Source: Bacillota bacterium (GTDB taxonomy: Bacteria; Bacillota; Clostridia; Christensenellales; CAG-138). Taken from it: a stretch of DNA of 64,000 nt. The stretch covers positions 106,704 to 170,703 of the forward strand of contig JAEWYO010000060.1 in assembly GCA_023395595.1 (NCBI GenBank). Reading direction: 5' to 3'. Position 1 is the stretch's first letter; each line of letters begins with the position of its first letter. The translations under genes and the position numbers were made by a program. The notes below the pieces were generated by a model. That model did no database searches and was not told where the DNA came from. It worked only from the letters and a program-made list of their open reading frames with translations. This document shows, one piece after another, positions 14,526 through 26,006 of this stretch.

Positions 14526-15371
14526 GACACGCTGCTGGATGATCGCAATCAGCTCCAGTACATCCCGCTCGGTTGCGTTGCCGTTGTTGACGATGAAGCC
14601 CGCGTGCATGGGGCTGACCTGCGCGCCGCCAACGGAGAAACCCTTGAGCCCGGCGCCTTCAATCAGCGCACCGGCAAACCTGCCGTTTGGGCGTTTGAAG
14701 ACGCTGCCCGCACTTGGGAGAGTGAGCGGTTGCTTTTCCTTGCGCTGGCGCGTCGTTTCCATCATTCGTTCGCGCGCGCCGCCGTCGTCATGTTCCAACT
14801 GGAATGTGGCGGATAGCACCACGACCTCGGGCGCTGCATACTTGCTTGTGCGGTTGCCAAAGTCGGTTTTCTTTGTTTCAACATCCAGCACACGCCCGTT
14901 TTTGAGGATGCGCACGCTCTTGATGATATGCCGAATCTCCGCACCGTAAGCGCCCGCGTTCATTGCGACCGCGCCGCCGACCGTACCGGGAATACCACTA
15001 AGCGATTCTAGACCCATCAGGCGCATATTGACGCTTTCGCGCGCGAGCACGGAGAGCGCGGTGCCCGCGGGGCACGTCACGGTGGTGTCTACGAAAAGCG
15101 GTGTGGTGAGCGGGGTATCGATGCGGATGATTACGCCCGGATAGCCCGCATCGGGCGCCAGCACGTTTGTGCCGTTGCCGAGGATACAATAAGGGGTTAC
15201 GAACTGGCTGCACGCCTGGATCGTCTTTCGAATGTCCTCCGCGTTGCGCGGGCGCAACACCATCGCTGCCGGGCCGCCGATGCGGAAGCTCGTCAGAGTG
15301 GAGAGCGGTACATTGCATTTGACATCGAGTCCCTTGAGTGCAAGGAAGACGCGGTTGAGCGAATTTTCCAT
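14466..15371 (-). CDS. murB: UDP-N-acetylenolpyruvoylglucosamine reductase
   Basis: 301 aa. FRIGGPA FAD-binding signature, GNGTNVL, SAGSVFKRP. Confidence 0.93.
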   Translation of the reverse strand: MENSLNRVFLALKGLDVKCNVPLSTLTSFRIGGPAAMVLRPRNAEDIRKTIQACSQFVTPYCILGNGTNVLAPDAGYPGVIIRIDTPLTTPLFVDTTVTCPAGTALSVLARESVNMRLMGLESLSGIPGTVGGAVAMNAGAYGAEIRHIIKSVRILKNGRVLDVETKKTDFGNRTSKYAAPEVVVLSATFQLEHDDGGARERMMETTRQRKEKQPLTLPSAGSVFKRPNGRFAGALIEGAGLKGFSVGGAQVSPMHAGFIVNNGNATERDVLELIAIIQQRVYEESGVQLEREVKLLSELS

Positions 15372-15377
15372 GCTGCT

Positions 15378-15406
15378 ATCATAACAAACTGTTCACAATT
15401 AGACAA
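15378..15406 (-). promoter_or_regulatory. Candidate promoter placed to give a leaderless murB mRNA (TTGTCT-17-TATGAT-6 nt-ATG)
   Basis: Minus strand: TTGTCT aattgtgaacagtttgt TATGAT agcagc ATG. There is no SD before the ATG. Confidence 0.35.
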
Positions 15407-15480
15407 CCGGAAATCGAGCAAAACTTGCATAATTGAATTGATAGTTTGGAATAGTCGCCGTAATTTTGCGTGTTTTGCAG

Positions 15481-15505
15481 TTATTACAATAAAATATTGT
15501 AATAA
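15481..15505. repeat. Perfect 11-bp inverted repeat with 3-bp spacer (candidate operator)
   Basis: TTATTACAATA-aaa-TATTGTAATAA, located in the divergent murB / small-ORF promoter region, 3 bp upstream of a -35-like TTGTAT. Confidence 0.6.
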
Positions 15506-15508
15506 TGT

Positions 15509-15536
15509 TTGTATGAGAAGCGTTGGTTTGTATAAT
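15509..15536 (+). promoter_or_regulatory. Candidate promoter (TTGTAT-16-TATAAT)
   Basis: TTGTAT gagaagcgttggtttg TATAAT. It lies over the 5' end of the maximal 15523 ORF, implying a downstream start. Confidence 0.4.
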
Positions 15537-15891
15537 GGAAGCACGAAGCACTCCTATGAATCAGGCTCATATAGAACATGACTGGAGAACCGCTGTGCAT
15601 CGAGACAAACCAGCGAAGATCATTCTGCTGACAGTCCTGGTTGCATTCCTCATATATATTTTGGGTAGTTGCATCGTTGGGTATATTCCGCCAACGGAAT
15701 CCTACAAGAAAACGCCTAAGCAATTTGAAGAGTTGTTCAATGAGCAAATGGCACGATACGGTATGTCGATTGATATTGATTCGGTTGCGTTTATTGATGA
15801 TGAAGACGGTCTTCGCAAAGTTGTACCGATTGCCTATGAAGACGGGAGCAAGGTTTCTTTCACCTATTATCCAACCGGAAAAGTAATATAA
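15523..15891 (+). CDS. Hypothetical small single-pass membrane protein (orphan; start uncertain, possibly GTG 15595)
   Basis: One TM helix (IILLTVLVAFLIYILGSCIVGYI) followed by a ~70-aa soluble tail. Low-GC. GGAGA lies 6 nt before the GTG at 15595. No family recognised. Confidence 0.45.
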   Translation: MVCIMEARSTPMNQAHIEHDWRTAVHRDKPAKIILLTVLVAFLIYILGSCIVGYIPPTESYKKTPKQFEELFNEQMARYGMSIDIDSVAFIDDEDGLRKVVPIAYEDGSKVSFTYYPTGKVI

Positions 15892-16161
15892 TGGAGCGCT
15901 AATTGTTTGTTGAGAGTTTATAGAAGGTAAAGAGGCGAAAACAAGTATTTACATTTCGCCGGAAAACAATAAGGAATTTTCGGTGACTTTCAAAAGAAAA
16001 TTTGACGAAAAGGCAACGCTCTCCGTCCGGTTTCATTTGTGGAATCCGTATAGGAGTTGACTTCTGAAAGATAACGTTGAGTATTCTCCTTCGAATATAG
16101 ATTTGAATCATCGTATTCGATGGAGACATCAAAAGAATATTGGAATTTTGAGAAGAGCGTT

Positions 16162-16665
16162 TTATAAGAATGCAGAAGAGCGTTTTTGAATCACCCGCGC
16201 ATACTCCCTTGCCAAATCTTCCAACCGCATCCGCGCGTTTGCCGCGCTGGGCGAAGGCAGGATTTCGCAGGGGATTTTTGTTTGCGGAAAGACGAGGCGG
16301 GTATAGAGCCGCGCGGATGTGGCGCCCGTGCAGAGCACGCGGGTGATGGATGAGCGCGCAATCAGCGCGGGGAAGTCGTTTGCCACGGGGTTTTTGATGC
16401 TGGCGTCGCTGGCGCCCGTGATTTCACAGGAGGCGAGCACGTCCCAAAGCGCGAGTCGATGGCGCAGCAACAGCGCGGTTTTTTCCTCGATACTGGCCGG
16501 CTTTTCTTCGCCAAGCGCGAGGGCAAGCGCGGACCAGAAGCGGTTTTGCGGGTGCGCATAATAAAACGCCTGCTCACGCGATTTGGGCGAGGGCATCGTG
16601 CCGAGAATCAGGATTTCGCTCTCCGTGGAGACGATTGGCGGTATCGTATGAATTACATGCTCCAT
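16162..16665 (-). CDS. Uracil-DNA glycosylase superfamily protein (DNA-deoxyinosine/hypoxanthine glycosylase type)
   Basis: MEHVIHTIPPIVSTESEILILGTMPSPKSREQAFYYAHPQNRFW matches the GxMPS...YY.hp.NrFW signature of this UDG family. Confidence 0.8.
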   Translation of the reverse strand: MEHVIHTIPPIVSTESEILILGTMPSPKSREQAFYYAHPQNRFWSALALALGEEKPASIEEKTALLLRHRLALWDVLASCEITGASDASIKNPVANDFPALIARSSITRVLCTGATSARLYTRLVFPQTKIPCEILPSPSAANARMRLEDLAREYARVIQKRSSAFL

Positions 16666-16672
16666 ACTCGCT

Positions 16673-16701
16673 AGAGTAACGCATTTAACGCGCGCTGGCA
16701 A
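16673..16701 (-). promoter_or_regulatory. Candidate promoter giving a leaderless glycosylase mRNA (TTGCCA-17-TACTCT-7 nt-ATG)
   Basis: Minus strand: TTGCCA gcgcgcgttaaatgcgt TACTCT agcgagt ATG. No SD. Confidence 0.35.
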
Positions 16702-16741
16702 CGCCAAAAGCTGCTATTCTGGCCCGGGAACACAGCGGCGG

Positions 16742-16770
16742 TTGATATTACACCGTCATTCTGCTAAGAT
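16742..16770 (+). promoter_or_regulatory. Candidate promoter giving a leaderless ABC-exporter mRNA (TTGATA-17-TAAGAT-6 nt-ATG)
   Basis: TTGATA ttacaccgtcattctgc TAAGAT gtgtgc ATG(16777). No SD. Confidence 0.4.
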
Positions 16771-16776
16771 GTGTGC

Positions 16777-18513
16777 ATGAGTAAACTGAAACGATTTTTT
16801 GCCTATTATCGTCCCCACAAGGGGCTGTTGATTCTCGATTTATCCTGCGCGGTGCTGGTCTCTATGATCGACATCGCTTACCCGATGCTCACGCAGTATG
16901 TCCTACGGACGCTGCTGCCGCAGATGTCGGTGGATTCTGCTCTGGTGCGCGTGTTTGTGGGCCTTATCGCGGCGGCATTCGGCGCATTTGTGGTGCGATC
17001 CTTGTTACTGTATATCATCAATTACTGGGGACACGTTCTTGGTGTGCGGATGGAGGCGGATATCCGGCGGGATATCTTCTCGCATATTCAGGAGCTTTCC
17101 TTTAGTTTTTACGACAAAGTACGCACGGGAAAACTGATGTCCCGCGTGACGACGGATCTCTTTGACATCACGGAGCTCGCGCACCACGGCCCGGAGGATG
17201 TGCTGATCTCCGGTACGACGATGATCGGCGCATTCATCATCATGATGTTCGTCGATTGGCGGCTTTCGCTAGCGTTGCTTTGCATCGTGCCGGTCGCGAT
17301 TTTCTATATCGTACGGCTGAGAATCCAGATGCGTAACGCATCCCTCAAGGTGAAGGAACGTGTTGCGGAGATCAACGCGGATATCGAGTCCTCCATCTCT
17401 GGCGCACGCGTGGCAAAGGCGTTTACCAACGAGGGGTATGAACAGGAGAAGTTTGAACGCGGCAACAAGAAGTTTGTCCACGCGAAGGACGGATTCTACC
17501 ATTATATGGCGCTCTTTGGCAGCGGGATGGAATTCTTTATCGCGATGTTCAACCTCGTGGTGCTGGCGCTTGGCGGATACTTGATCTACAAGAGCAGCCT
17601 CGATCCGATCCTGCTGATCACGTTTTCGCTCTATATCGCGGCGTTCATTCAGCCGCTCAAGCGGCTTGCCGCATTTACGGAGGTCTATATTCTCGGCATG
17701 GCGGGATTCAGCCGCTTTTGCGAGATTATGGACATTGAGCCGGAGATCAAAGACCGTCCGAACGCAAAAACACTGCAAAACGTGCGCGGCGATATTTGCT
17801 TTGACGACGTAACGTTTGCGTATGAGAGCGGGAAGAGCGTCCTCTCCCATGTGAACCTCGACGTGCCCGCGGGAACCACCCTCGCGCTGGTTGGCCCGAG
17901 TGGTGGAGGAAAGACAACGCTGTGCCACCTGCTGCCGCGGTTTTATGAGCAGCGCAGCGGTACGATCACCATCGACGGCGTGGACACGCGGGATGTGACG
18001 ATGCGATCGCTGCGGCAAAACGTTGGCATTGTACAGCAGGACGTGTTCCTCTTTGCCAGCACTATTCTCGAGAATATCCGTTACGGACGAATCGATGCGA
18101 CCGACGAAGAGGTCATCGAAGCCGCTAAACGTGCGCATATTCACGACGAGATTTTGCAGTTTACCGATGGATATGAAACGCAGGTTGGCGAGCGGGGCAT
18201 TATGCTCTCCGGCGGACAAAAACAGCGTGTTTCGATTGCGCGGCTGTTCCTCAAGAACCCGCCTGTACTGATTCTTGACGAGGCGACCAGCGCGCTGGAC
18301 ACCGTCACCGAGCACGACATTCAGCATTCGTTTGAAGAGCTTTCACGCGGAAGAACGACGCTGGTGATTGCGCACCGGCTCTCCACGGTCAAGCATGCGG
18401 ACGAAATCGTCGTGCTTGACGAGCAGGGCATTCGCGAGCGGGGAACGCACGAGCAACTGCTGCAGGCAAACGGGCTCTATGCCCAGCTGTATCAGGTGTC
18501 GATGATTGATTAA
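16777..18513 (+). CDS. ABC transporter, fused permease/ATP-binding exporter (MsbA/multidrug type half-transporter)
   Basis: Six-TM N-terminal half. Walker A GPSGGGKTT, signature LSGGQKQRVSIAR, Walker B ILDEATSALD. Confidence 0.9.
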   Translation: MSKLKRFFAYYRPHKGLLILDLSCAVLVSMIDIAYPMLTQYVLRTLLPQMSVDSALVRVFVGLIAAAFGAFVVRSLLLYIINYWGHVLGVRMEADIRRDIFSHIQELSFSFYDKVRTGKLMSRVTTDLFDITELAHHGPEDVLISGTTMIGAFIIMMFVDWRLSLALLCIVPVAIFYIVRLRIQMRNASLKVKERVAEINADIESSISGARVAKAFTNEGYEQEKFERGNKKFVHAKDGFYHYMALFGSGMEFFIAMFNLVVLALGGYLIYKSSLDPILLITFSLYIAAFIQPLKRLAAFTEVYILGMAGFSRFCEIMDIEPEIKDRPNAKTLQNVRGDICFDDVTFAYESGKSVLSHVNLDVPAGTTLALVGPSGGGKTTLCHLLPRFYEQRSGTITIDGVDTRDVTMRSLRQNVGIVQQDVFLFASTILENIRYGRIDATDEEVIEAAKRAHIHDEILQFTDGYETQVGERGIMLSGGQKQRVSIARLFLKNPPVLILDEATSALDTVTEHDIQHSFEELSRGRTTLVIAHRLSTVKHADEIVVLDEQGIRERGTHEQLLQANGLYAQLYQVSMID

Positions 18514-18562
18514 CCCCGCCGGACGCATCAGATAACAAACCCAAACAGAAAGGGATGCGCGC

Positions 18563-19147
18563 GTGAAGAAACGCACTCTTACAATCCTGCTCACAATCCT
18601 GATCGTGCTTGCGGCGCTTTGGCTGGCAGGTACGCTCAGCCCACAGACGGACGGCACACCGGCGCAGAAACCAACAAGCGAGCTTGTCCTGATCGACGGC
18701 GAAGCCCTCACGCATGCGCCGGATCCGACCGCCGAAGCTACCGCGGGAGCACAGAACACAGCGGAGCCAACAACGGCGCCAACCCCGAATCAGGCAGTGC
18801 TCGACGAGGCGGGCACTTACACCAGCAAAGAGGATGTGAGCCTGTATCTTTTCACCTACGGGCATCTGCCGGAGAACTTCATCACCAAGAGCGCGGCGCG
18901 TTCCCTCGGCTGGAGCGGCGGCGGGCTGGATGATTATGACTACGGCAAGTGCATCGGCGGTGATCGCTTCGGCAATAATGAAGGTCTCCTGCCGGAGGCG
19001 CGTGGGCGGGATTATTATGAATGCGATATCGACACCTTGCACAAGGACAGCCGGGGAGCAAAGCGCATCGTTTTTTCCAGCGACGGGTTGATCTATTATA
19101 GCGGGGATCACTATGATTCATTCGAACTGCTCTACGGTGAACCGTGA
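18563..19147 (+). CDS. Secreted/anchored barnase-family ribonuclease (N1/T1/Sa superfamily)
   Basis: GTG start. N-terminal signal/anchor MKKRTLTILLTILIVLAALWLAG, then an Ala/Pro/Thr-rich (low-complexity) linker. The C-terminal RDYYECDIDT...RIVFSSDGLIYYSGDHYDSFELLY parallels the barnase ...READINY...RILYSSDWLIYKTTDHYQTFTKI. Confidence 0.85.
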   Translation: MKKRTLTILLTILIVLAALWLAGTLSPQTDGTPAQKPTSELVLIDGEALTHAPDPTAEATAGAQNTAEPTTAPTPNQAVLDEAGTYTSKEDVSLYLFTYGHLPENFITKSAARSLGWSGGGLDDYDYGKCIGGDRFGNNEGLLPEARGRDYYECDIDTLHKDSRGAKRIVFSSDGLIYYSGDHYDSFELLYGEP

Positions 19148-19165
19148 GCAAGGCGTGAGGTGAAC

Positions 19166-19453
19166 ATGAAACACGAGAAACGGCTGACCCTCAACGCGCG
19201 AAGGATGGACACAAGGGGACACGCGCATGCACACCTGAAACAGCGCCTCCATCTGCCGGAATGGTATGGCAGCAACCTTGACGCGCTGAACGACTGTCTC
19301 GGCGAAATTGGTGAACCAACGTGGATCATTCTGCGATTCGCCCCGAGGTTGACCCAATCATTGGGTGACTATGGCGCAAAACTGATTCAAGTGCTGGAGC
19401 AGGCTTCACAAGAGAATAATAACCTCCGCATATCTCTGAAAAACGGGTTTTAA
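19166..19453 (+). CDS. Barstar-family ribonuclease inhibitor
   Basis: LHLPEWYGSNLDALNDCLGEI matches the barstar LALPEYYGENLDALWDCL. Lies 19 nt after the RNase gene. SD GTGAGG. Confidence 0.85.
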   Translation: MKHEKRLTLNARRMDTRGHAHAHLKQRLHLPEWYGSNLDALNDCLGEIGEPTWIILRFAPRLTQSLGDYGAKLIQVLEQASQENNNLRISLKNGF

Positions 19454-19530
19454 AAGATCATTCTGGGAACGGTGCTCCTGCTCATCGTGCATTTGAAAAC
19501 GAATGTTGCGGCGGCAGACGAAGGGAGACG

Positions 19531-20649
19531 ATGCATTTGCATATGATTCAAACACTTCTCGGCGGGCTTGCCATCGCACTTGGCGCGCTGTTGGTCATCG
19601 GCCTGCTGCTTCTTTTACTGCTGCATGTAACGCGTGCGGTGGATAACCACCGCGTGCAAAAAATGCGGGAGCAGCTGCTTTGTCTGATCTCCGGCGCGGC
19701 GGAAGCAAAGCGGATGAAGAACCATATCTATGAGATGGTCAACCCCGGCGGCAAGCTGGATCAGCTTTGCGACATTCGTGGCATCCGCGCAACGCGCGGG
19801 TTGATCGTGATGGCTGAGACGGCAGGGGAACTCTCCGGCGCAGCATATGAAAAGCTGCAAAGGGAAGCAGGCGGAGAATGGTATGGCGAATACCTCAAGA
19901 AGCTGCTTGACGGTGTGGATGAAGAGGCGATTGCGTTGGTGGTCAAGCTCATCGGTGCACTGCAACTCAAGAACTACACGCCGGATGTGGTTACGCAGAT
20001 CTATTGCTGTCGGACAACCGCGCAGATGCAGCATGTCGGCATGCTTACGCTCTGCATGCTTGGAGCGGAGCGTGACATCGTTGCGCTGTGCCGCGATCAT
20101 ACGATTGCGTCGCTGCTCTCCTTCCGAACGCTGGAGGAGATTTTCTCCGTGTATCAGGGTGACCTCAAGCGCCTCTGCCGGAAGTTGATCACCTCAGCAT
20201 CCGATCCCTATATCCGCCGCACATGCATCAAAGCCATCGGCGAGCAGAAATTCGACGACCTGGGAGAGCTTGTGCTGCCGCACCTAATGCAAGGACACAT
20301 CAACACCCGCATTGACTCCGCGCGTGCACTAGGGCAGATTCATTATGAACCGGCCTATCCGCATCTTCTTGCGGGCGCAACGGACCCGCGCTGGGAGATG
20401 CGCGCCGTGGTTGCAACCGCACTTGGTGCGTTCGGCGCGGAGCAAAACGAGGAGATACTTGTCAAGCTCCTGTGTGATCGGGAATGGTGGGTGCGCTATC
20501 GCGCGGCGGAGTCACTCACGCAAGTTAACAACACAGAGGCGCTGATGCAGCGCATCGAAGCAACGGGGGATCGATTTGCAGCGGAAATGATGCGTTTTGC
20601 GCTTGACCGTGCGGTGTTTTTGAGAGGGGGTGCGTTGACATGCAACTAA
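19531..20649 (+). CDS. Membrane-anchored HEAT-repeat protein
   Basis: N-terminal TM (LLGGLAIALGALLVIGLLLLLLLHV). C-terminal HEAT/PBS-lyase-like repeats (DPYIRRTCIKAIGE, INTRIDSARALGQI, DPRWEMRAVVATALGAFG, REWWVRYRAAESLTQV). Confidence 0.75.
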   Translation: MHLHMIQTLLGGLAIALGALLVIGLLLLLLLHVTRAVDNHRVQKMREQLLCLISGAAEAKRMKNHIYEMVNPGGKLDQLCDIRGIRATRGLIVMAETAGELSGAAYEKLQREAGGEWYGEYLKKLLDGVDEEAIALVVKLIGALQLKNYTPDVVTQIYCCRTTAQMQHVGMLTLCMLGAERDIVALCRDHTIASLLSFRTLEEIFSVYQGDLKRLCRKLITSASDPYIRRTCIKAIGEQKFDDLGELVLPHLMQGHINTRIDSARALGQIHYEPAYPHLLAGATDPRWEMRAVVATALGAFGAEQNEEILVKLLCDREWWVRYRAAESLTQVNNTEALMQRIEATGDRFAAEMMRFALDRAVFLRGGALTCN

Positions 20650-21965
20650 TCGCAATGATTCTTCGCGCCTTACCGAATATGATCGCAATTCTACCAGACG
20701 TGTGCTACGGGTTCCTTGCGCTCGTGTTTCTTGCGGGAATCGTGCGGCTCGTGCTGCTTGCGCGCGCAACCGTTACGCTCCGAAAGCAAGTCCGCTCCTT
20801 GCGCTCGGTCGATTACCGCAGGTTTCAGGATTCCGAGCATGTGATGCCGGTTTCGCTGATTTTGCCGGCGATAGACGAGACGGGAAGCCTGACAGAACAA
20901 CTGGAGAATCTGCTCAGTCTTGAATTCAAACAGTATGAGCTGATTGTTGTCGCAAACAAAACGCATGAAGCAACGTGGGCAAGCCTTTGCCAGGGATATA
21001 GCCTGCTGCCGTTTCGCCAACCGTTTAAGCGGACGTTGAACGCTCCGCAGGTGGAGGGAGTTTACCGTTCCGCCAAAGACGTTCGCCTTGTCGTGCTGGA
21101 TGTTCGGAACGCAGATCGTGCGGGCGCGCTCAACGCAGGCGTGAATGTTTCGTCCTATCCGATCATTGCGCCGATCTATCCTGACCTGCGGCTGACAAAG
21201 GATGCGCTGCTCAAGACGGTCTATGCGTTTGTGAGCGATCCAGCCTGCGTGTTCATCGGCTCGGTTGCGCGCGTAGGCAGCGCGGCGGAGGCAGGCACCC
21301 GGATGCCGATGCTAGCGCAGCAGCAATATCTCGAGCGGATGCGCACGTTTTACACCAACCGCACGGGATATGCGTCCATCGGACTGTATCTTTCGCTGAG
21401 TAAAACATTTTGTGCCTTTCTCAAGAGCGCAGTGACGCTGGAAGGTGGTTTTTCCGGAGAGGCTAAGGCGGAGAGCGCCGATCTATTGCTTCGCATTCAC
21501 GCGCGGCTGAAGAAAGACAAGCGTTCCTATAGCGCGCGGTTGCTGCCGGACGCGGTGTGCTATCAACTGCCGCAGAAAAACATGCGCGGCGTCTGCGCGC
21601 AAATGCGAGCAGGTCAGCGCGAACTGCGAAACACCGTCCGCCGCAATCGCGTGATTGCGCGCACCTTGCACGGAGCCGGATACACGCGCTTTGCGGAGCG
21701 AATCTGGCCGCTGGTGGAATTCATCGGCGTGGTGGTTGTGCTGGCTTCTGCGGCACTCGGCGCGGTGCCGCTGCTCTTTGCGGGGCTTTATCTGCTGCTT
21801 GGCGTGCTGCTTGGCGCGATTCAGTCCGCGCTGAGCATGCTGCTGGAGGAATATGCATTCCAACGGCAGACAGACACGGGGCTACTACTTGGCCGCTATG
21901 TGCTAGCGATCTGTGACAACGTCTATTTCCGGCTACGCATGGCGCTTGCAAGAGCGTTTTCATAA
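20640..21965 (+). CDS. Family-2 glycosyltransferase-like polytopic membrane protein (PgaC/IcaA-like architecture; catalytic motifs appear degenerate)
   Basis: 441 aa. N-terminal TMs, GT-A-like core (VSLILPAIDE..., RAGALNAG), C-terminal TMs. The start overlaps the HEAT gene stop by 10 nt (ATGCAACTAA). Confidence 0.75.
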   Translation: MQLIAMILRALPNMIAILPDVCYGFLALVFLAGIVRLVLLARATVTLRKQVRSLRSVDYRRFQDSEHVMPVSLILPAIDETGSLTEQLENLLSLEFKQYELIVVANKTHEATWASLCQGYSLLPFRQPFKRTLNAPQVEGVYRSAKDVRLVVLDVRNADRAGALNAGVNVSSYPIIAPIYPDLRLTKDALLKTVYAFVSDPACVFIGSVARVGSAAEAGTRMPMLAQQQYLERMRTFYTNRTGYASIGLYLSLSKTFCAFLKSAVTLEGGFSGEAKAESADLLLRIHARLKKDKRSYSARLLPDAVCYQLPQKNMRGVCAQMRAGQRELRNTVRRNRVIARTLHGAGYTRFAERIWPLVEFIGVVVVLASAALGAVPLLFAGLYLLLGVLLGAIQSALSMLLEEYAFQRQTDTGLLLGRYVLAICDNVYFRLRMALARAFS

Positions 21966-21994
21966 ACCGCAGGAATGCGCAAGATGAGAAAAAG

Positions 21995-22020
21995 AAGCCG
22001 CCGGAACAAACGGCGGCTTT
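21995..22020 (+). terminator. Probable intrinsic terminator after the GT2-like gene
   Basis: AAGCCGCCG-gaacaaa-CGGCGGCTT followed by a short T tail (TTTGG). Confidence 0.55.
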
Positions 22021-22153
22021 GGCATGCCGTTACAACGAGACGGGAAAAGCAACTGTGAAAACAACAAGATCGCCCGATTGCGGGTTTGAATTGGCTTTTG
22101 AAGTATAAAACCGGCAGAAGTCAACGAATTGTGTCAAAATGTGAAAAAAATAG

Positions 22154-22183
22154 TTGAATGACGGTGGGTGATTCCGCTATACT
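22154..22183 (+). promoter_or_regulatory. Candidate promoter upstream of rluB (TTGAAT-18-TATACT)
   Basis: TTGAAT gacggtgggtgattccgc TATACT. Predicts a ~146-nt leader. Confidence 0.45.
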
Positions 22184-22335
22184 ATATTTGGTGGCATATG
22201 GCAATGTTCTATCTGCCAATGCAGCTTAAAAAACCCTTTCAAACGGCGTATCGCAATCGTTTCTGACCGGAACCATTCCGCTCTCGACATTTTTGCTAGA
22301 CACGAACGAACGAAAAAAAGATGAGGAACGCGAGA

Positions 22336-23058
22336 ATGATGTTGCGACTACAGAAGTATTTGGCGGAGGCTGGCATCGCTTCCCGCAGGGCAAGCGAAGA
22401 GCTGATTACCGCAGGGCGCGTCAGCGTCAACGGTGTTACGGCTACACTCGGCATGAGCATCGACCCCGAAACGGACACCGTCCTCTTTGACGGAAAACCG
22501 GTCAAGCAGGAAGAAGAGCTCATCACGATCATGCTTTACAAACCCAAAGGCGTTGTCAGCACCAGCGACGACCCGCAGGGGAGAACGACGGTTCAGGAAT
22601 ACGTCAAGGATATTCCCGCTCGCCTATATAATGTAGGCCGGCTGGACATCAACTCCGAAGGACTGCTACTCATGACCAACGACGGGGAACTGGCGCACCG
22701 TATGACGCACCCGAAGTTTTCTGTGGCGAAGACGTATTTTGCCATCTGTGATGGAAAACTACTGCCTTCCGAAATCGCCTCGCTTGTGAACGGCGTGACG
22801 CTGGACGACGGGATGACGGCTCCCGCGCGCGTGACGCGCGTACACCCGACAGCTTCGGGAGACACATCGTTTCTTATCACGATTCACGAGGGAAAGAATC
22901 GCCAGATCCGGCGTATGCTCGAAGCGGTCGGACACCGGACACTTCGCCTCAAACGTGAGAAATTTGGTCCGCTCTATCTTGGCGATCTCAAGCCGGGTGA
23001 AACAAGACGGCTCACACAGGACGAGATGCGTTCCCTGCGGCACGCGCTCGGACTCTAA
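22336..23058 (+). CDS. rluB: Pseudouridine synthase, RsuA/RluB family with S4 domain
   Basis: S4 domain LQKYLAEAGIASRRASEELITAGRVSVNG. Catalytic GRLDINSEGLLLMTNDG. SD GAGGA 8 nt before the ATG at 22336. Confidence 0.85.
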   Translation: MMLRLQKYLAEAGIASRRASEELITAGRVSVNGVTATLGMSIDPETDTVLFDGKPVKQEEELITIMLYKPKGVVSTSDDPQGRTTVQEYVKDIPARLYNVGRLDINSEGLLLMTNDGELAHRMTHPKFSVAKTYFAICDGKLLPSEIASLVNGVTLDDGMTAPARVTRVHPTASGDTSFLITIHEGKNRQIRRMLEAVGHRTLRLKREKFGPLYLGDLKPGETRRLTQDEMRSLRHALGL

Positions 23059-23189
23059 ACGAAAAAGCAAGGCTCAAATATATGAGAAACAGGCAAGTGC
23101 AGACAAAGCGCCTGCCGACCGATTTGGCAAGGAACAGGATGAGGCATTTGCCTTCCTTGATAAATGCAATTTAGCGGAGGTACTTCAAT

Positions 23190-23438
23190 ATGGACAAAAC
23201 GATTTGGATCGTCATCGGCGTGTTCGCGGGATTGATCGCACTCATTGTGATTCTCAAAGCGGTACGCGCACGTCAGGATCGCCTTTATGGCGAAGAAGAA
23301 GCCATCGCGGAAACCAGTGCACCCGCCGCGATCACAAACCGCGCGGAGCTCGCCGCGGTCGTTGCCAGCTGCGTGGCTGAGGTGATGGGTAAGGACGTTT
23401 CCGGCCTTCGCATCGTCTCCATCAAGCAGGTTGGCTAA
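23190..23438 (+). CDS. OadG-family small membrane protein (Na+-decarboxylase gamma-subunit-like)
   Basis: 82 aa. A single N-terminal TM (IWIVIGVFAGLIALIVIL), then a ...ELAAVVASCVAEVMG... tail typical of OadG. Confidence 0.75.
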   Translation: MDKTIWIVIGVFAGLIALIVILKAVRARQDRLYGEEEAIAETSAPAAITNRAELAAVVASCVAEVMGKDVSGLRIVSIKQVG

Positions 23439-23497
23439 GCCCAATTCAATTCGTCGGAACATCAAATTTCACATATAGTAAATAATCGGAGGTTATT

Positions 23498-23854
23498 ATG
23501 CGCAATTTTCTTGTGAACGTCAATGGAACACAGTATGAAGTAGCCGTGGAAGAAATCGACGGCAAAGCAGCCCCCGCAGCAAAGCCCGCTCCCGCAGCGG
23601 CAGCACCTGTTGCAGCACCCGTGGCAGCACCCGTTGCCGGCGGTACCACAGTGACCGCGCCGATGCCCGGCACCATCCTTGGCATCAACGTCAAAGAAGG
23701 CGAAGCCGTCAAGGCAGGCGATGCGATCTTCGTGCTGGAAGCCATGAAGATGCAGAGCGATATCGTTGCCCCGGTCGGCGGCACCGTTCGCGGCATTGCA
23801 ATCTCCAAGGGCGCATCTGTCTCCGCAGGCGACCTGCTCTGCTCCATCCAATAA
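23498..23854 (+). CDS. Biotin carboxyl-carrier (biotinyl/lipoyl) protein
   Basis: Ala/Pro linker, then a biotinyl domain with VLEAMKMQSDI (the AMKM biotinylation motif). Confidence 0.85.
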   Translation: MRNFLVNVNGTQYEVAVEEIDGKAAPAAKPAPAAAAPVAAPVAAPVAGGTTVTAPMPGTILGINVKEGEAVKAGDAIFVLEAMKMQSDIVAPVGGTVRGIAISKGASVSAGDLLCSIQ

Positions 23855-23982
23855 TCATTGGATTCTCCCGCGTGAAACCGCCGTACCCATCCGGCCTTTC
23901 GTGCGTCCCTTACTCATGACACCGTGGCGGCGCGCGCAGGGGAAGAAACCCTGCCCGGCATCGCACAAAGGAGAAACGACAG

Positions 23983-25395
23983 ATGAGCAAATTATTCATT
24001 ACCGATACAATCCTCCGCGACGCGCACCAGTCCCAGGCTGCCACGCGCATGCGCATCGAGGATATGCTTCCGGCCTGCGAAGTGCTCGATTCCATCGGCT
24101 ACTGGTCGCTGGAAGTTTGGGGAGGAGCCACGTTTGATGCGTGCCTCCGTTTCCTGAACGAAGATCCGTGGGATCGTCTGAGAAAGCTGCGCAAAGCCTT
24201 GCCGAACACCAAACTGCAAATGCTGTTCCGCGGACAGAACATCCTCGGTTACAAGCACTATGCGGACGACGTGGTCGAGCAGTTCTGCAAAAAAGCCATC
24301 GAAAACGGCATCGACGTTATCCGCATCTTCGACGCGGTCAACGACATGCGTAACCTTGAGAGCGCGATTCGCTTCACCAAGAAGTATGGCGGTATCTGCG
24401 AACCCGCCATCAGCTATACGGTTTCGCCGGTGCACAATCACGATTACTTCATTCAAATGGCAAAAGAGCTCGAACAGATGGGTGCGGACACGATCTGCAT
24501 CAAGGATATGGCAAACCTGCTTCTGCCGTATGACGCATATTCGCTCATTTCGCGCCTGAAGAAGGAAGTCAGCGTTCCGATCCACCTGCACACCCACAAC
24601 ACGACCGGCACCGGCGACATGGTTTACCTCATGGCTGCGCAGGCTGGTGTGGACATCGTGGACACCGCGCTGTCTCCCTTCGGTAACGGCACGGCACAGC
24701 CCGCCACCGAGCCGCTGGTTGCAACCCTCAAAGGAACCGACCGTGACACGGGTCTCGACCTTGTCAAACTTTCCGAGGCTGCAAAGATCATGCGCCCCGT
24801 CGCGGATCGCATGCTTGCTGACGGTACGATTTCCGTCAAATCCCTCGGCGTGGATACCAACACGCTGCTGTATCAGGTGCCGGGCGGCATGCTCAGCAAC
24901 CTGATCTCCCAGCTCAAGGAAGCCGGCAAGTCCGACAAGTATTACGAGGTTCTCGAAGAGGTGCCGCGTGTACGCAAAGACTTCGGCTATCCGCCGCTTG
25001 TCACGCCCACAAGCCAGATCGTCGGCACGCAGGCCGTGCTCAACGTCATCAGCGGTGAGCGCTATAAGGTTTTCACCAAGGAATCCAAAGCGCTGCTGCA
25101 TGGCGAATACGGCAATCTGCCCGCGCCGGTGAATGAAGAAGTCCGCCGCAAGGCGATTGGCGATGCGGAAGTGATCACCTGCCGTCCGGCAGACCTGCTC
25201 AAGCCGGAGCTCGAGAGCTACCGCGAAGAGATCAAGGATCACATCCGTCAGGAAGAAGACGTACTCAGCTATGCGCTCTTCCCGCAGGTTGCGCTCAAGT
25301 TCTTTGAAGCGCGCGAAGCCGCGGAGCGCAAAGCGCAGGAACCGCAGCAGGACGATAGCGTCCGTACGCTGTATGTGGAGGACATTGGCGCATAA
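23983..25395 (+). CDS. oadA: Oxaloacetate decarboxylase alpha / 5S carboxyltransferase subunit (no fused biotinyl domain)
   Basis: ITDTILRDAHQSQAATRM (HMGL-like TIM barrel), HLHTHNTTGTG metal site. At 470 aa it ends without an AMKM domain. Confidence 0.85.
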   Translation: MSKLFITDTILRDAHQSQAATRMRIEDMLPACEVLDSIGYWSLEVWGGATFDACLRFLNEDPWDRLRKLRKALPNTKLQMLFRGQNILGYKHYADDVVEQFCKKAIENGIDVIRIFDAVNDMRNLESAIRFTKKYGGICEPAISYTVSPVHNHDYFIQMAKELEQMGADTICIKDMANLLLPYDAYSLISRLKKEVSVPIHLHTHNTTGTGDMVYLMAAQAGVDIVDTALSPFGNGTAQPATEPLVATLKGTDRDTGLDLVKLSEAAKIMRPVADRMLADGTISVKSLGVDTNTLLYQVPGGMLSNLISQLKEAGKSDKYYEVLEEVPRVRKDFGYPPLVTPTSQIVGTQAVLNVISGERYKVFTKESKALLHGEYGNLPAPVNEEVRRKAIGDAEVITCRPADLLKPELESYREEIKDHIRQEEDVLSYALFPQVALKFFEAREAAERKAQEPQQDDSVRTLYVEDIGA

Positions 25396-25398
25396 CAT

Positions 25399-25974
25399 AT
25401 GAGACATTTGCCGAACATTCTATCAGGAATACGGCTCGCTCTCGTTGGTGTGTTTGTGATGCTTTTCAGGGCAGGCAGGTATTTGCCTGCCCTCTGCGTA
25501 TTCGTGTTTGCTTTTTTTACCGACTTACTGGACGGCTACCTCGCCCGCTCGAACGGCTGGGTGACCGATGTCGGAAAACTGTTGGACCCGCTCGCGGATA
25601 AGTTCATGACGCTGGCGGCGCTGGTCTGTATCTATCTGGGTAAAAACAAGCCGATCTACCTCGTGCTGTTCCTGCTGATGGCGATCAAGGAGCTGCTGAT
25701 GGTCATCGGCGGTGTGTTCCTTGCCAAGCGCAAGGTGGTTGTGATGGCGGCTTGGCCGGGGAAGATTGCAACCGGGCTGTTTGCGCTCGGAGTTATGCTC
25801 TCGCTGCTGTCGTTTCTTTCGGTGCATGTGGAGCCCCTCAACCTTGTCGTACTCGGGCTTGCAACACTGATGTCCTATTTCGCGCTGGTCTATTATGCGG
25901 CAACGCAATTGCCGCACGCCTTCCCTAAAAAGGCGAAAGACGGGAACGGCACGGACAAAAACGCGCAAGCATGA
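25399..25974 (+). CDS. pgsA: CDP-diacylglycerol--glycerol-3-phosphate 3-phosphatidyltransferase (CDP-alcohol phosphatidyltransferase family)
   Basis: DLLDGYLARSNGWVTDVGKLLDPLADK equals the D-x2-DG-x2-AR...G-x3-D-x3-D motif. Confidence 0.85.
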   Translation: MRHLPNILSGIRLALVGVFVMLFRAGRYLPALCVFVFAFFTDLLDGYLARSNGWVTDVGKLLDPLADKFMTLAALVCIYLGKNKPIYLVLFLLMAIKELLMVIGGVFLAKRKVVVMAAWPGKIATGLFALGVMLSLLSFLSVHVEPLNLVVLGLATLMSYFALVYYAATQLPHAFPKKAKDGNGTDKNAQA

Positions 25975-26006
25975 GCCGTGAATGCGGCGTAAATTGCTGA
26001 AAAAGC

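What the first reader, a model, noticed from the sequence alone, without database searches (positions are those of the whole stretch)
19531..21965. Translationally coupled membrane HEAT-repeat protein + PgaC-like GT2 whose catalytic motifs all look degenerate
Seen in sequence: a 372-aa protein with one N-terminal TM helix and four or more HEAT/PBS-lyase-like repeats is followed by a 441-aa polytopic GT2-like protein. The two genes overlap by 10 nt (ATGCAACTAA), and a terminator follows at 21995.

The GT2-like protein has the architecture of processive synthases such as PgaC, IcaA, BcsA and NodC. When I align it by eye to the canonical motifs of that family, every catalytic signature is altered:
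- The DDGS/NDGS motif reads VVANKTHE.
- The DxD motif reads PIYPDLRL, with the first Asp replaced by Tyr.
- The (T/G)ED catalytic base reads AESADL, with Asp replaced by Ser.
- QxxRW reads QRELRN or QMRAG, with no Trp.

Inference: this is either a pseudo-glycosyltransferase with a scaffold, sensor or channel role, partnered with a HEAT adaptor, or a divergent synthase with unusual chemistry. I cannot place the pair in any described exopolysaccharide system. It sits directly downstream of a barnase-barstar pair on the same strand.
Basis: partly seen in the sequence, partly recalled or inferred. Interest (0 to 1): 0.6.

Follow-up and report, generated by a model that had tools for sequence, protein, structure and literature searches.

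The report
Dead sugar-polymer synthase kept with partner
A Christensenellaceae bacterium keeps, under clear purifying selection, a membrane sugar-polymer synthase that has lost every catalytic motif, still paired with its HEAT-repeat partner, which suggests that this previously undescribed, widespread synthase-partner pair also does a job that needs no enzyme activity.

Summary
Two intact, translationally coupled genes sit at 19531-20649 and 20640-21965. The first encodes a membrane-anchored HEAT solenoid and the second a GT2 with the fold of processive synthases. NDGS, GGK, DxD, GED and QRxRW are all lost (ANKT, ADR, YPD, AES, QMRAG).

The pair comes from a widespread system I could not find described: a HEAT gene directly upstream of a PgaC-like GT2 in 73 of 80 loci across many phyla, often with a ~730-aa protein that has no Pfam or NCBIfam match. 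In two related Christensenellaceae genomes the same chromosomal slot (barnase-barstar to rluB) holds the canonical three-gene version. In the window's clade the large gene is absent and the motifs have decayed, and two less decayed forms survive in the same slot.

This is not a dying gene. dN/dS is 0.09-0.25, the clade holds about 85 full-length 90%-identity clusters, and the AlphaFold model has pLDDT 89. Constraint has flipped: the GT2 is now less conserved than HEAT in 28 of 28 pairs, against 0 of 36 canonical pairs.

Best reading: a pseudoenzyme retained as a non-catalytic membrane complex with HEAT. Its actual role is unknown.

The parts
19520..19527 (+). Ribosome-binding site GAAGGGAG ahead of the HEAT gene
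   Evidence: Read from the sequence. A GAAGGGAG-like element is shared by most (4 of the 6) aligned orthologous loci.
19531..20649 (+). Gene for the membrane-anchored HEAT-repeat protein (372 aa). It has an N-terminal TM helix at about residues 8-31 with basic residues after it, so the solenoid should face the cytoplasm. A long stalk helix runs to residue 70, followed by an alpha-solenoid at 88-364.
   Evidence: ORF. Pfam HEAT_2 1.2e-17. AF2 pLDDT 91.1. Foldseek hits are alphaRep/HEAT binders, the PP2A A subunit and CpcE/F. dN/dS 0.07-0.14. Hydrophobic segment at 3-39.
20624..20630 (+). Ribosome-binding site GAGGGGG for the GT2-like gene, lying inside the 3' end of the HEAT gene
   Evidence: Read from the sequence.
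20640..20649 (+). 10-nt overlap ATGCAACTAA (GT2-like start codon and HEAT stop codon), giving translational coupling
   Evidence: Abutting or overlapping junctions recur in orthologous and canonical loci: L001 adjacent, L002 4 nt, L087 1 nt, L003 4 nt.
20640..21965 (+). Gene for the catalytically degenerate GT2-like membrane protein (441 aa)
   Evidence: ORF. PF00535 28.1 bits, TIGR03937 43 bits against a cut-off of 422. AF2 pLDDT 89.4 with a processive-synthase fold. dN/dS 0.09-0.25.
20688..20774 (+). N-terminal transmembrane helix of the GT2-like protein (about residues 17-45)
   Evidence: Hydrophobic segment 3-47. AF2 helix 2-55.
20796..20840 (+). Hyper-conserved juxtamembrane motif SLRSVDYRRFQDSEH (residues 53-67). 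Proposed, by inference only, as a contact with the HEAT partner.
   Evidence: Mean majority-residue frequency 0.94 for residues 53-70 within the degenerate clade. Shared with canonical Christensenellaceae paralogues as SLRYIDYKRFLDSEH.
20952..20963 (+). ANKT in place of the NDGS (DDGS-type) nucleotide-binding motif
   Evidence: Register confirmed against solved 5hea and 5ekp.
21111..21119 (+). ADR in place of GGK (conserved Lys lost)
   Evidence: The position is variable within the clade.
21177..21185 (+). YPD in place of the DAD (DxD) metal-binding motif
21468..21476 (+). AES in place of GED (the TED-type catalytic base)
   Evidence: The former Asp position has a majority frequency of only 0.26 in the clade.
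21600..21614 (+). QMRAG in place of QRxRW
   Evidence: The R, R and W positions are variable in the clade.
21690..21848 (+). C-terminal pair of transmembrane helices (about residues 351-403), followed by the conserved LLEEYAFQRQTDTG segment
   Evidence: Hydrophobic segments. AF2 helices 344-372 and 378-407. Conservation.
21995..22019 (.). GC-rich hairpin 30 nt after the stop codon, probably the operon terminator
   Evidence: 9-bp stem with 7 GC pairs. The T-run is clear only on the minus-strand side.
18563..19453 (+). Context only: a barnase-like RNase with an N-terminal hydrophobic segment, suggesting secretion (18563-19147), and barstar (19160-19453). Conserved upstream neighbours, not shown to belong to the system.
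   Evidence: Pfam PF00545 4.8e-18 and PF01337 1.2e-17. Same neighbours in L001, L002, L006, L087 and L089.

Best explanation
The second gene encodes a pseudoenzyme. It is a membrane-embedded GT2 that keeps the fold and topology of a processive PgaC/HAS-type synthase but can no longer bind UDP-sugar or catalyse transfer. It evolved in place from an active HEAT-partnered synthase operon (a ~730-aa protein with no Pfam or NCBIfam match, plus HEAT, plus GT2). The large partner gene was lost and the catalytic motifs decayed stepwise.

What selection now maintains is the two-protein membrane complex itself. The HEAT solenoid and the dead GT-A domain both face the cytoplasm. They are made in coupled amounts and most likely stay bound to each other. 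The contact probably runs through the N-terminal TM and stalk helices and the hyper-conserved juxtamembrane motif.

The complex would then act as a non-catalytic scaffold or regulator at the membrane, with HEAT as the protein-binding surface and the dead synthase as its obligate partner.

Shown here: motif loss, fold retention, purifying selection, the reversal of constraint, the conserved pairing and the in-place origin. Inferred: physical binding, the interface, and the scaffold or regulatory role.
For: 1. Motif loss is objective and clade-wide. hmmalign shows NDGS / GGK / D[AGS]D / [GT]ED / QRxRW essentially invariant in the 74 canonical HEAT-partnered GT2s aligned. All five are lost in the window, L001, L002 and L007-L011. 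The register for the DGS and DxD motifs is confirmed against solved 5hea and 5ekp.
2. The former active-site positions vary within the clade (majority frequency 0.26-0.56). They are relaxed, not re-fixed.
3. The gene is not decaying. There are about 85 full-length 90%-identity clusters. dN/dS is 0.09-0.25 with dS near saturation. The AF2 model has pLDDT 89.4 and a processive-synthase fold.
4. Constraint has reversed. In the degenerate clade the median identity is 0.56 for GT2 and 0.76 for HEAT, with GT2 below HEAT in 28 of 28 pairs. In the canonical Christensenellaceae it is 0.91 against 0.69, with GT2 above HEAT in 36 of 36 pairs.
5. The pairing is ancestral and general. A HEAT-family ORF lies directly upstream on the same strand in 73 of 80 loci across many phyla.
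6. The origin is in place. The barnase-barstar to rluB slot holds the canonical triad in L006/L013 and L012. It holds partly decayed forms without the large gene in L021 and L087, and fully decayed forms in the window's clade. Rough NJ trees place L021 and P0088 as early branches, with long GT2 branches but not long HEAT branches.
7. Four other motif-degenerate lineages that I checked (P0217, P0241, P0326, P0332) also keep an adjacent HEAT-family gene, and none has a homologue of the large protein nearby.
Against: - No experiment or complex model shows that the two proteins bind. The interface is inferred from conservation and gene coupling only.
- Loss of canonical motifs does not strictly prove inactivity. 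N106, D182 (68%), E278 (73%) and D281 (at least 95%) remain.
- The scaffold or regulator role is a default for pseudoenzymes, and nothing here points to a client or pathway.
- The other degenerate lineages are mostly singleton clusters on short contigs. They could be sequencing-level pseudogenes rather than parallel examples.
- The NJ trees are crude and prone to long-branch attraction.
Confidence: 0.6

Rival explanations
1. Regulatory or decoy subunit of an active paralogue. The dead synthase-HEAT pair works only together with a canonical HEAT-GT2-large-protein synthase encoded elsewhere in the same genome. It might form mixed oligomers or titrate a shared activator, and so tune polysaccharide output.
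For: One complete genome (OY776633.1) carries both the degenerate pair in the barnase slot (L002) and a canonical triad next to a GH16 gene (L004/L018). Redundancy after duplication is the classic route to a pseudoenzyme. By general knowledge, pseudoenzymes often regulate their active paralogues.
Against: Co-occurrence is shown for only one genome. For the contigs of 2.03 Mb and 3.67 Mb that carry the degenerate-type HEAT, no canonical-type HEAT from the same contig appears among the 120 listed hits (32 further hits were not listed, so this is weak evidence). The 64-kb window contains no canonical copy.
Confidence: 0.22
2. A divergent but still active glycosyltransferase or synthase that uses non-canonical residues or a different donor (unusual chemistry).
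For: The GT-A fold and TM architecture are intact. Some clade-specific residues are fixed: A105, W113, R233, F271, A305 and D281. An acidic residue persists at D281, and D182 is kept in 68% of members.
Against: All five motifs that are essentially invariant across the 74 canonical relatives aligned are lost. The replacement residues at the former nucleotide, metal, base and acceptor positions differ from member to member, which is not expected for a working active site. The GT2 went from the more conserved to the less conserved partner. The large partner, which is present next to every canonical Christensenellaceae copy examined, is absent from all degenerate loci.
Confidence: 0.08
3. A retained channel or translocon. 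Catalysis is gone, but the TM helices together with the HEAT TM helix still form a conduit or receptor for a polymer or lipid-linked glycan made by other enzymes.
For: The C-terminal TM helices and the LLEEYAFQRQTDTG segment remain well conserved (mean 0.71 in the clade). The fold still superposes on channel-forming synthases.
Against: Residues conserved in canonical relatives at and near the channel entrance are lost: W of QRxRW, W308 to Y, P305 to A, and Y28 and Y36 in TM1. No glycan-synthesis genes are conserved next to the pair. Only about three TM helices per protein are present.
Confidence: 0.07
4. A functionless relic: a slowly decaying pseudogene kept only through polar or coupling effects on expression of neighbouring genes.
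For: All catalytic motifs are lost. The GT2 has accelerated branch lengths.
Against: dN/dS is 0.09-0.25 over dS of about 1 or more. ORFs of 436-444 aa are intact in about 85 clusters down to 50% identity. Several segments are hyper-conserved. The predicted fold is confident.
Confidence: 0.03

Closest known systems
Canonical HEAT-partnered PgaC-like GT2 operon of Christensenellaceae (loci L006/L013, L012, L004/L018, L005/L020). I could not find it described.
   Same: It has the same gene order (HEAT then GT2, abutting or overlapping). In L006/L013 and L012 it sits in the same chromosomal slot between barnase-barstar and rluB. HEAT is 50-57% identical and GT2 35-37% identical. The N-terminal TM plus juxtamembrane motif, the LLPFxQPYKK insert and the LLEE(N/Y)xF segment are shared.
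   Different: The canonical version keeps NDGS, GGK, DAD, GED and QRKRW. It has two short insertions (8 and 7 aa) and a basic C-terminal tail of roughly 25-30 aa, and it is preceded by a ~730-aa protein with no significant Pfam or NCBIfam match and no PDB sequence match. The window pair lacks all of these.
PgaC / IcaA poly-beta-1,6-GlcNAc synthases (TIGR03937)
   Same: This is the best NCBIfam match. It shares the GT2 GT-A domain flanked by TM helices, and the need for a small membrane partner (PgaD or IcaD, from general knowledge) parallels the HEAT partner.
   Different: The score is 43 bits against a cut-off of 422. The catalytic motifs are absent. The partner is a 372-aa HEAT solenoid rather than a small two-TM protein. 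No deacetylase or porin genes are present.
Chlorella virus hyaluronan synthase and BcsA (solved processive GT2 synthases)
   Same: These are among the closest solved folds: 7sp7/7sp6 at TM 0.67, with BcsA and chitin synthases also matching. The best hit by E-value was PcManGT (6yv7).
   Different: Sequence identity is 14-16%. There are fewer TM helices. The D, DxD, (T/G)ED and QxxRW signature that defines these enzymes is missing.
Degenerate-domain receptors and pseudoenzymes in bacterial exopolysaccharide systems (for example the degenerate GGDEF domain of PelD; from general knowledge)
   Same: An enzyme fold is retained without its catalytic residues and kept under selection inside a membrane complex.
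   Different: Those examples bind c-di-GMP at a known site, and the inactive domain is not the synthase itself. Here the synthase subunit is the inactive part, and no ligand is known.

Membership tests
Processive membrane GT2 synthases (PgaC/IcaA, BcsA, HAS, NodC, chitin synthase type) | GT-A domain embedded between N- and C-terminal TM or interface helices | tested here: met
   AF2 model with pLDDT 89.4. Foldseek hits include CvHAS at TM 0.67, BcsA and Chs1. Hydrophobic segments at 3-47 and 351-403.
Processive membrane GT2 synthases (PgaC/IcaA, BcsA, HAS, NodC, chitin synthase type) | Catalytic signature D (DDGS/NDGS), DxD, (T/G)ED and QxxRW | tested here: not met
   The window reads ANKT, YPD, AES and QMRAG at the homologous columns. 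The register of the DGS and DxD motifs was checked against solved 5hea and 5ekp.
Processive membrane GT2 synthases (PgaC/IcaA, BcsA, HAS, NodC, chitin synthase type) | Curated model score (TIGR03937 PgaC_IcaA cut-off 422.3; Pfam PF13641 and PF13632 gathering scores of 27) | tested here: not met
   TIGR03937 43.4 bits. PF13641 18.3 bits, below 27. PF13632 gave no hit. Only the generic PF00535 passes, at 28.1 against 23.3.
Processive membrane GT2 synthases (PgaC/IcaA, BcsA, HAS, NodC, chitin synthase type) | Makes and translocates a polysaccharide from a UDP-sugar | not testable with these tools
   This needs an activity assay.
HEAT-partnered PgaC-like GT2 system (delineated here from 80 loci) | HEAT-family gene directly upstream on the same strand, abutting or overlapping | tested here: met
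   10-nt overlap in the window. The same arrangement is found in 73 of 80 loci.
HEAT-partnered PgaC-like GT2 system (delineated here from 80 loci) | Both proteins are homologous to the family | tested here: met
   GT2 scores 729 bits against a family HMM that was built from an alignment including the window, and it nests next to the canonical Christensenellaceae clade. HEAT scores 645 bits and is 50-57% identical to canonical partners.
HEAT-partnered PgaC-like GT2 system (delineated here from 80 loci) | Intact NDGS / GGK / DxD / GED / QRxRW (essentially invariant in the 74 canonical members aligned) | tested here: not met
HEAT-partnered PgaC-like GT2 system (delineated here from 80 loci) | Adjacent large (~730-1100 aa) partner protein, present in 31 of 80 loci and in every canonical Christensenellaceae locus | tested here: not met
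   No hit to the profile of the large protein anywhere in the 64-kb window, nor in any degenerate locus.
HEAT / PBS-lyase repeat proteins (PF13646, PF02985, PF03130) | Pfam gathering scores and an alpha-solenoid of paired helices | tested here: met
   64.4, 41.6 and 33 bits, all above their cut-offs. AF2 solenoid at 88-364. alphaRep and PP2A-A fold matches.
Phycobiliprotein lyases CpcE/F, CpeY and NblB | NCBIfam equivalog score | tested here: not met
   12.5-31.2 bits against cut-offs of 200-600. This is repeat similarity only.
Pseudoenzyme (operational definition) | Clear homologue of an enzyme family, catalytic residues absent, and the gene under purifying selection | tested here: met
Pseudoenzyme (operational definition) | Demonstrated lack of catalytic activity | not testable with these tools
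   This needs biochemistry.

The most novel reading that the evidence does not exclude
The HEAT-GT2 membrane complex, present across many bacterial phyla and apparently undescribed, has a second function that does not depend on catalysis, for example signalling or organising an envelope process through the HEAT solenoid. That function alone is what selection keeps in the Christensenellaceae clade, and possibly in several other lineages where the synthase motifs decayed independently while the HEAT neighbour stayed.
Probability: 0.3. Interest if true: 0.75.

Novelty: new variant of a known kind. Interest (0 to 1): 0.58.

Why it matters
Synthase-dependent exopolysaccharide systems are usually defined by the GT2 synthase plus a small co-subunit. 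This work points to two things I could not find described.

1. A HEAT-repeat membrane protein is the near-universal upstream partner of a large PgaC-like GT2 family spread over many phyla, often with a further ~730-aa protein that matches no Pfam or NCBIfam family.
2. There is a natural loss-of-catalysis series at one chromosomal locus, running from intact through partly decayed to fully decayed forms. In it the synthase becomes the less constrained partner but is still kept.

That series is a ready-made experiment for asking what the HEAT-synthase complex does apart from polymerisation, and which surfaces of the synthase matter for partner binding. It also warns that automated labels such as 'cellulose synthase/PNAG synthase-like glycosyltransferase' for these Christensenellaceae genes are probably wrong about activity.

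Tried and rejected
- **Literature.** Seven full-text searches found nothing on this pair or its canonical ancestor. They covered HEAT repeat with synthase-dependent EPS, GT2 operon, PgaC and glucan synthase; pseudo-glycosyltransferase; pseudoenzyme glycosyltransferase; and Christensenellaceae EPS. Only open-access text was searched, so absence is not proof.
- **Direct PDB sequence search.** The window protein gave only a chance hit. A profile was needed.
- **Identity of the ~730-aa partner.** There was no significant Pfam or NCBIfam hit and no PDB sequence hit. Only sub-threshold GH113 and GH5 hits appeared. The idea of a clan GH-A-like TIM barrel rests on my reading of the conserved 'NEE' and 'VAEFGIP' motifs and is unproven.
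- **Profile search with a mix of degenerate representatives (A7).** The consensus rebuilt the canonical motifs, so the search returned canonical proteins only.
- **Metal site in HEAT.** The four invariant cysteines (C175, C187, C232, C315) are conserved only in the Christensenellaceae-type subfamily, not in the wider family. I dropped this as a general feature.
- **Defence-system reading** (because of the barnase-barstar neighbours). PADLOC gave only a generic HEAT-ARM repeat hit. Rejected.
- **RNA elements.** No Rfam match at 15000-26000.
- **Upstream regulatory motif.** Alignment of the barstar-HEAT spacers showed only the ribosome-binding site. No convincing sigma-70 promoter lies in the 77-nt spacer.
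- **Apparent second copy in the 3.67-Mb contig (L089 against L001).** The whole housekeeping block is duplicated, with the two HEAT proteins 78% identical, and L001 sits at the end of a linear contig. This is most likely a chimeric assembly, not paralogy.
- **Horizontal transfer.** The GC content of the two genes (0.57) matches the window (0.55).


Full report
**1. What is in the window**

Two ORFs lie on the plus strand at 19531..20649 (372 aa) and 20640..21965 (441 aa). They overlap by ATGCAACTAA. Each has a purine-rich ribosome-binding site. A GC-rich hairpin follows at 21995-22019; its T-run is convincing only on the minus-strand side.

Upstream on the same strand are an ABC exporter, a barnase-family RNase with an N-terminal hydrophobic segment (suggesting secretion), and barstar. 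Downstream are a pseudouridine synthase (RluB-like), a biotin carboxyl carrier and an oxaloacetate-decarboxylase alpha-type carboxylase. The GC content of the two genes (0.57) matches the window (0.55). No Rfam family matches the region.

**2. The HEAT protein**

It matches Pfam HEAT_2 (1.2e-17), HEAT and HEAT_PBS. There is one hydrophobic segment at residues 3-39. Basic residues follow it, so by the positive-inside rule the rest of the protein should be cytoplasmic.

AlphaFold2 with a 26-sequence alignment gives pLDDT 91.1. The model has a long helix at 2-70 (TM plus stalk), then about 19 helices forming a solenoid to residue 364. Its nearest solved folds are designed alphaRep/HEAT binders, the PP2A A subunit and CpcE/F. 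This is a generic protein-binding scaffold. NCBIfam lyase models score far below their cut-offs.

**3. The GT2-like protein**

It barely passes PF00535 (28.1 bits against 23.3). It reaches 43 bits on TIGR03937 PgaC_IcaA, whose cut-off is 422. The AlphaFold2 model is nevertheless confident (pLDDT 89.4, pTM 0.86). It superposes on membrane-embedded processive GT2 synthases: Chlorella virus hyaluronan synthase at TM 0.67, BcsA and chitin synthases. The best hit by E-value was the mannosyltransferase PcManGT (6yv7).

**4. Objective motif test**

I collected close relatives and built a profile.
- The homology search found 89 clusters at 43-99% identity, named only as Clostridia, Clostridiales or Eubacteriales MAGs where a source gives a name. 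It then dropped to canonical GT2s at 30% identity or less.
- A scan of GTDB species genomes with two conserved peptides gave 80 loci.
- hmmalign of all of them shows NDGS / GGK / D[AGS]D / [GT]ED / QRxRW essentially invariant in the 74 canonical members aligned.
- The window and seven orthologous loci (L001, L002, L007-L011) read ANKT-like / ADR-like / YPD-like / AES-like / QMRAG-like.

Independent alignments of the family profile to solved GT2 chains put 'VVA(N/D)S' on 'INDGS'/'VNDGS' and 'YPDL' on 'DSDD'/'DADL'. QMRAG, not QRELRN, is the QxxRW homologue.

About 50 columns that are at least 90% conserved in canonical members are not kept in the degenerate clade. Within that clade the former catalytic columns have majority-residue frequencies of only 0.26-0.56. 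The site is relaxed rather than rebuilt.

**5. It is not a pseudogene**

Nei-Gojobori dN/dS against orthologues is 0.09-0.25 for the GT2-like gene and 0.07-0.14 for HEAT. dS is about 0.8-1.8, so the true ratios may be lower if dS is underestimated near saturation. ORF length is stable (436-444 aa) across about 85 full-length clusters. Several segments are hyper-conserved, notably SLRSVDYRRFQDSEH just after TM1, where residues 53-70 average 0.94.

**6. Where it came from**

Context look-ups show the same synteny in orthologues: UDG / ABC / barnase / barstar / HEAT / degenerate GT2 / RluB / Oad genes / RimP-NusA-IF2.

- In two related Christensenellaceae genomes (L006/L013 and L012) the same slot holds a three-gene operon: a ~735-aa protein with no Pfam or NCBIfam match, HEAT, and a canonical 472-aa GT2.
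- In other relatives a canonical triad sits elsewhere, next to a GH16 gene (L004/L018, L005/L020, L016, L017, L019).
- One complete genome has both the degenerate pair (L002) and a canonical triad (L004).
- Two partly decayed forms sit in the barnase slot without the large gene. L021 reads NDGS, GGL, RAG, CED, QRKRL. P0088/L087 reads FYGE, GDR, DPN, GEE, ERKEW.

Rough NJ trees place these two forms as early branches of a monophyletic degenerate clade. That clade has long GT2 branches but ordinary HEAT branches.

Pairwise identities make the same point without a tree. In the degenerate clade the median is 0.56 for GT2 and 0.76 for HEAT, with GT2 below HEAT in 28 of 28 pairs. In the canonical Christensenellaceae it is 0.91 against 0.69, with GT2 above HEAT in 36 of 36 pairs.

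Relative to its canonical paralogues the window protein also lacks two short insertions (8 and 7 aa) and a basic C-terminal tail of roughly 25-30 aa.

**7. The ancestral system is widespread and, as far as I can tell, undescribed**

A HEAT-family ORF lies directly upstream on the same strand in 73 of 80 loci. Two of the remaining seven have no upstream sequence to test. The loci come from Bacillota (Paenibacillus, Geobacillus, Anoxybacillus, Clostridium, Desulfosporosinus), Bacteroidota/Balneolaceae, Actinomycetota (Gaiella), Nitrospinaceae, Pseudomonadota, Treponema, Acidobacteriota and others.

The large protein is adjacent in 31 of 80 loci. It has no significant Pfam, NCBIfam or PDB sequence match. 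Only sub-threshold GH113 and GH5 hits appear. Its conserved 'NEE' and 'VAEFGIP' motifs look like a clan GH-A TIM barrel to me; that is my reading and is untested.

One distant canonical locus (L003) is flanked by an MshEN-T2SSE-REC protein, a receiver protein and a sulfatase-family protein. No NCBIfam equivalog covers the canonical GT2, and seven literature searches found nothing.

**8. Recurrence**

An exhaustive HMMER search of 1.84 billion representatives returned one representative for the whole window clade plus many relatives. Among the 150 best, roughly 30 lack three or more of the five motifs. In a rough NJ tree these fall in several separate groups.

I could fetch four of them (P0217, P0241, P0326, P0332). 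All four have an adjacent HEAT-family gene and no homologue of the large protein nearby. Most are singleton clusters on short contigs, so they are weaker evidence than the well-populated window clade.

**9. Interpretation**

The most economical reading is a pseudoenzyme. The synthase subunit lost donor binding, metal binding, the catalytic base and the acceptor-binding motif after its large partner gene was lost. The protein and its HEAT partner are still made together and kept by selection.

Both soluble domains are predicted to be cytoplasmic, and both proteins have an N-terminal TM helix followed by a long helix. I infer, but have not shown, that they form a membrane heterocomplex whose HEAT solenoid is the working surface. 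Whether it acts alone or tunes an active paralogue is open.

An active enzyme with new chemistry is unlikely because the former active site is variable inside the clade. A functionless relic is excluded by the codon-level and conservation evidence.

**10. Limits**

- There is no complex model, no biochemistry and no expression data.
- The trees are NJ on BLOSUM distances.
- dS is near saturation.
- The literature search covers open-access text only.

Noticed in passing
Loci L007-L086 (for example L078 Geobacillus icigianus, L026 Paenibacillus ferrarius, L031 Clostridium folliculivorans, L038 Gaiella, L039 Nitrospinaceae, L042 Treponema): A HEAT-repeat gene lies directly upstream of a canonical PgaC-like GT2 in 73 of 80 loci from many phyla. 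A large (~730-1100 aa) protein with no significant Pfam, NCBIfam or PDB sequence match is adjacent in 31 of them. This looks like a widespread synthase system that I could not find described.
   Followed up: partly
L004 4667-5614; L005 4585-5535; also L016, L017, L019: In five of the nine canonical Christensenellaceae loci, a GH16 gene with a Kre6/Skn1-like match sits just upstream of the large protein-HEAT-GT2 triad. This hints that the polymer is a beta-glucan.
   Followed up: no
L003 3786-12795: A distant canonical HEAT-GT2 pair is flanked by an MshEN-T2SSE-receiver protein (MshEN domains are known c-di-GMP binders), a second receiver protein, a 795-aa sulfatase-family protein and a 331-aa protein with no Pfam match. 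This suggests second-messenger control and polymer modification in some versions.
   Followed up: no
L021 5992-7380; L087 8001-9335: Two partly decayed GT2s sit in the same barnase-rluB slot without the large gene. L021 keeps NDGS and CED but has lost the Lys, the DxD and the Trp. L087 keeps only the Trp. They look like intermediate stages of the decay.
   Followed up: partly
L092, L093, L094, L095 (proteins P0241, P0326, P0217, P0332): Other motif-degenerate GT2s from apparently separate lineages still have an adjacent HEAT-family gene. Most are singleton clusters on short contigs, so their status as functional genes is uncertain.
   Followed up: partly
L001 and L089 (both on ENA contig ctg34060l, 3,673,039 bp): The whole housekeeping block (WhiA to NusA, including the HEAT and degenerate GT2 pair) occurs twice on one linear contig, with the two HEAT proteins 78% identical, and one copy is at the contig end. 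This is probably a chimeric metagenome assembly of two related strains.
   Followed up: partly
window 19531-20649 (HEAT residues C175, C187, C232, C315): Four cysteines are invariant across the Christensenellaceae-type HEAT partners, both degenerate-partnered and canonical-partnered. They are not conserved in the wider family. Whether they bind a metal or have a redox role is unknown.
   Followed up: partly
window 18563-19453: A barnase-family RNase with an N-terminal hydrophobic segment (suggesting secretion) and its barstar inhibitor are conserved immediately upstream of the HEAT-GT2 slot, after an ABC exporter, in all Christensenellaceae-type loci examined. This holds whether the slot is canonical or degenerate.
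   Followed up: partly
window 21995-22019: The hairpin after the GT2-like gene has an A-rich 5' flank, and its clear T-run is on the minus strand. It looks like a bidirectional terminator although no converging minus-strand gene follows.
   Followed up: no
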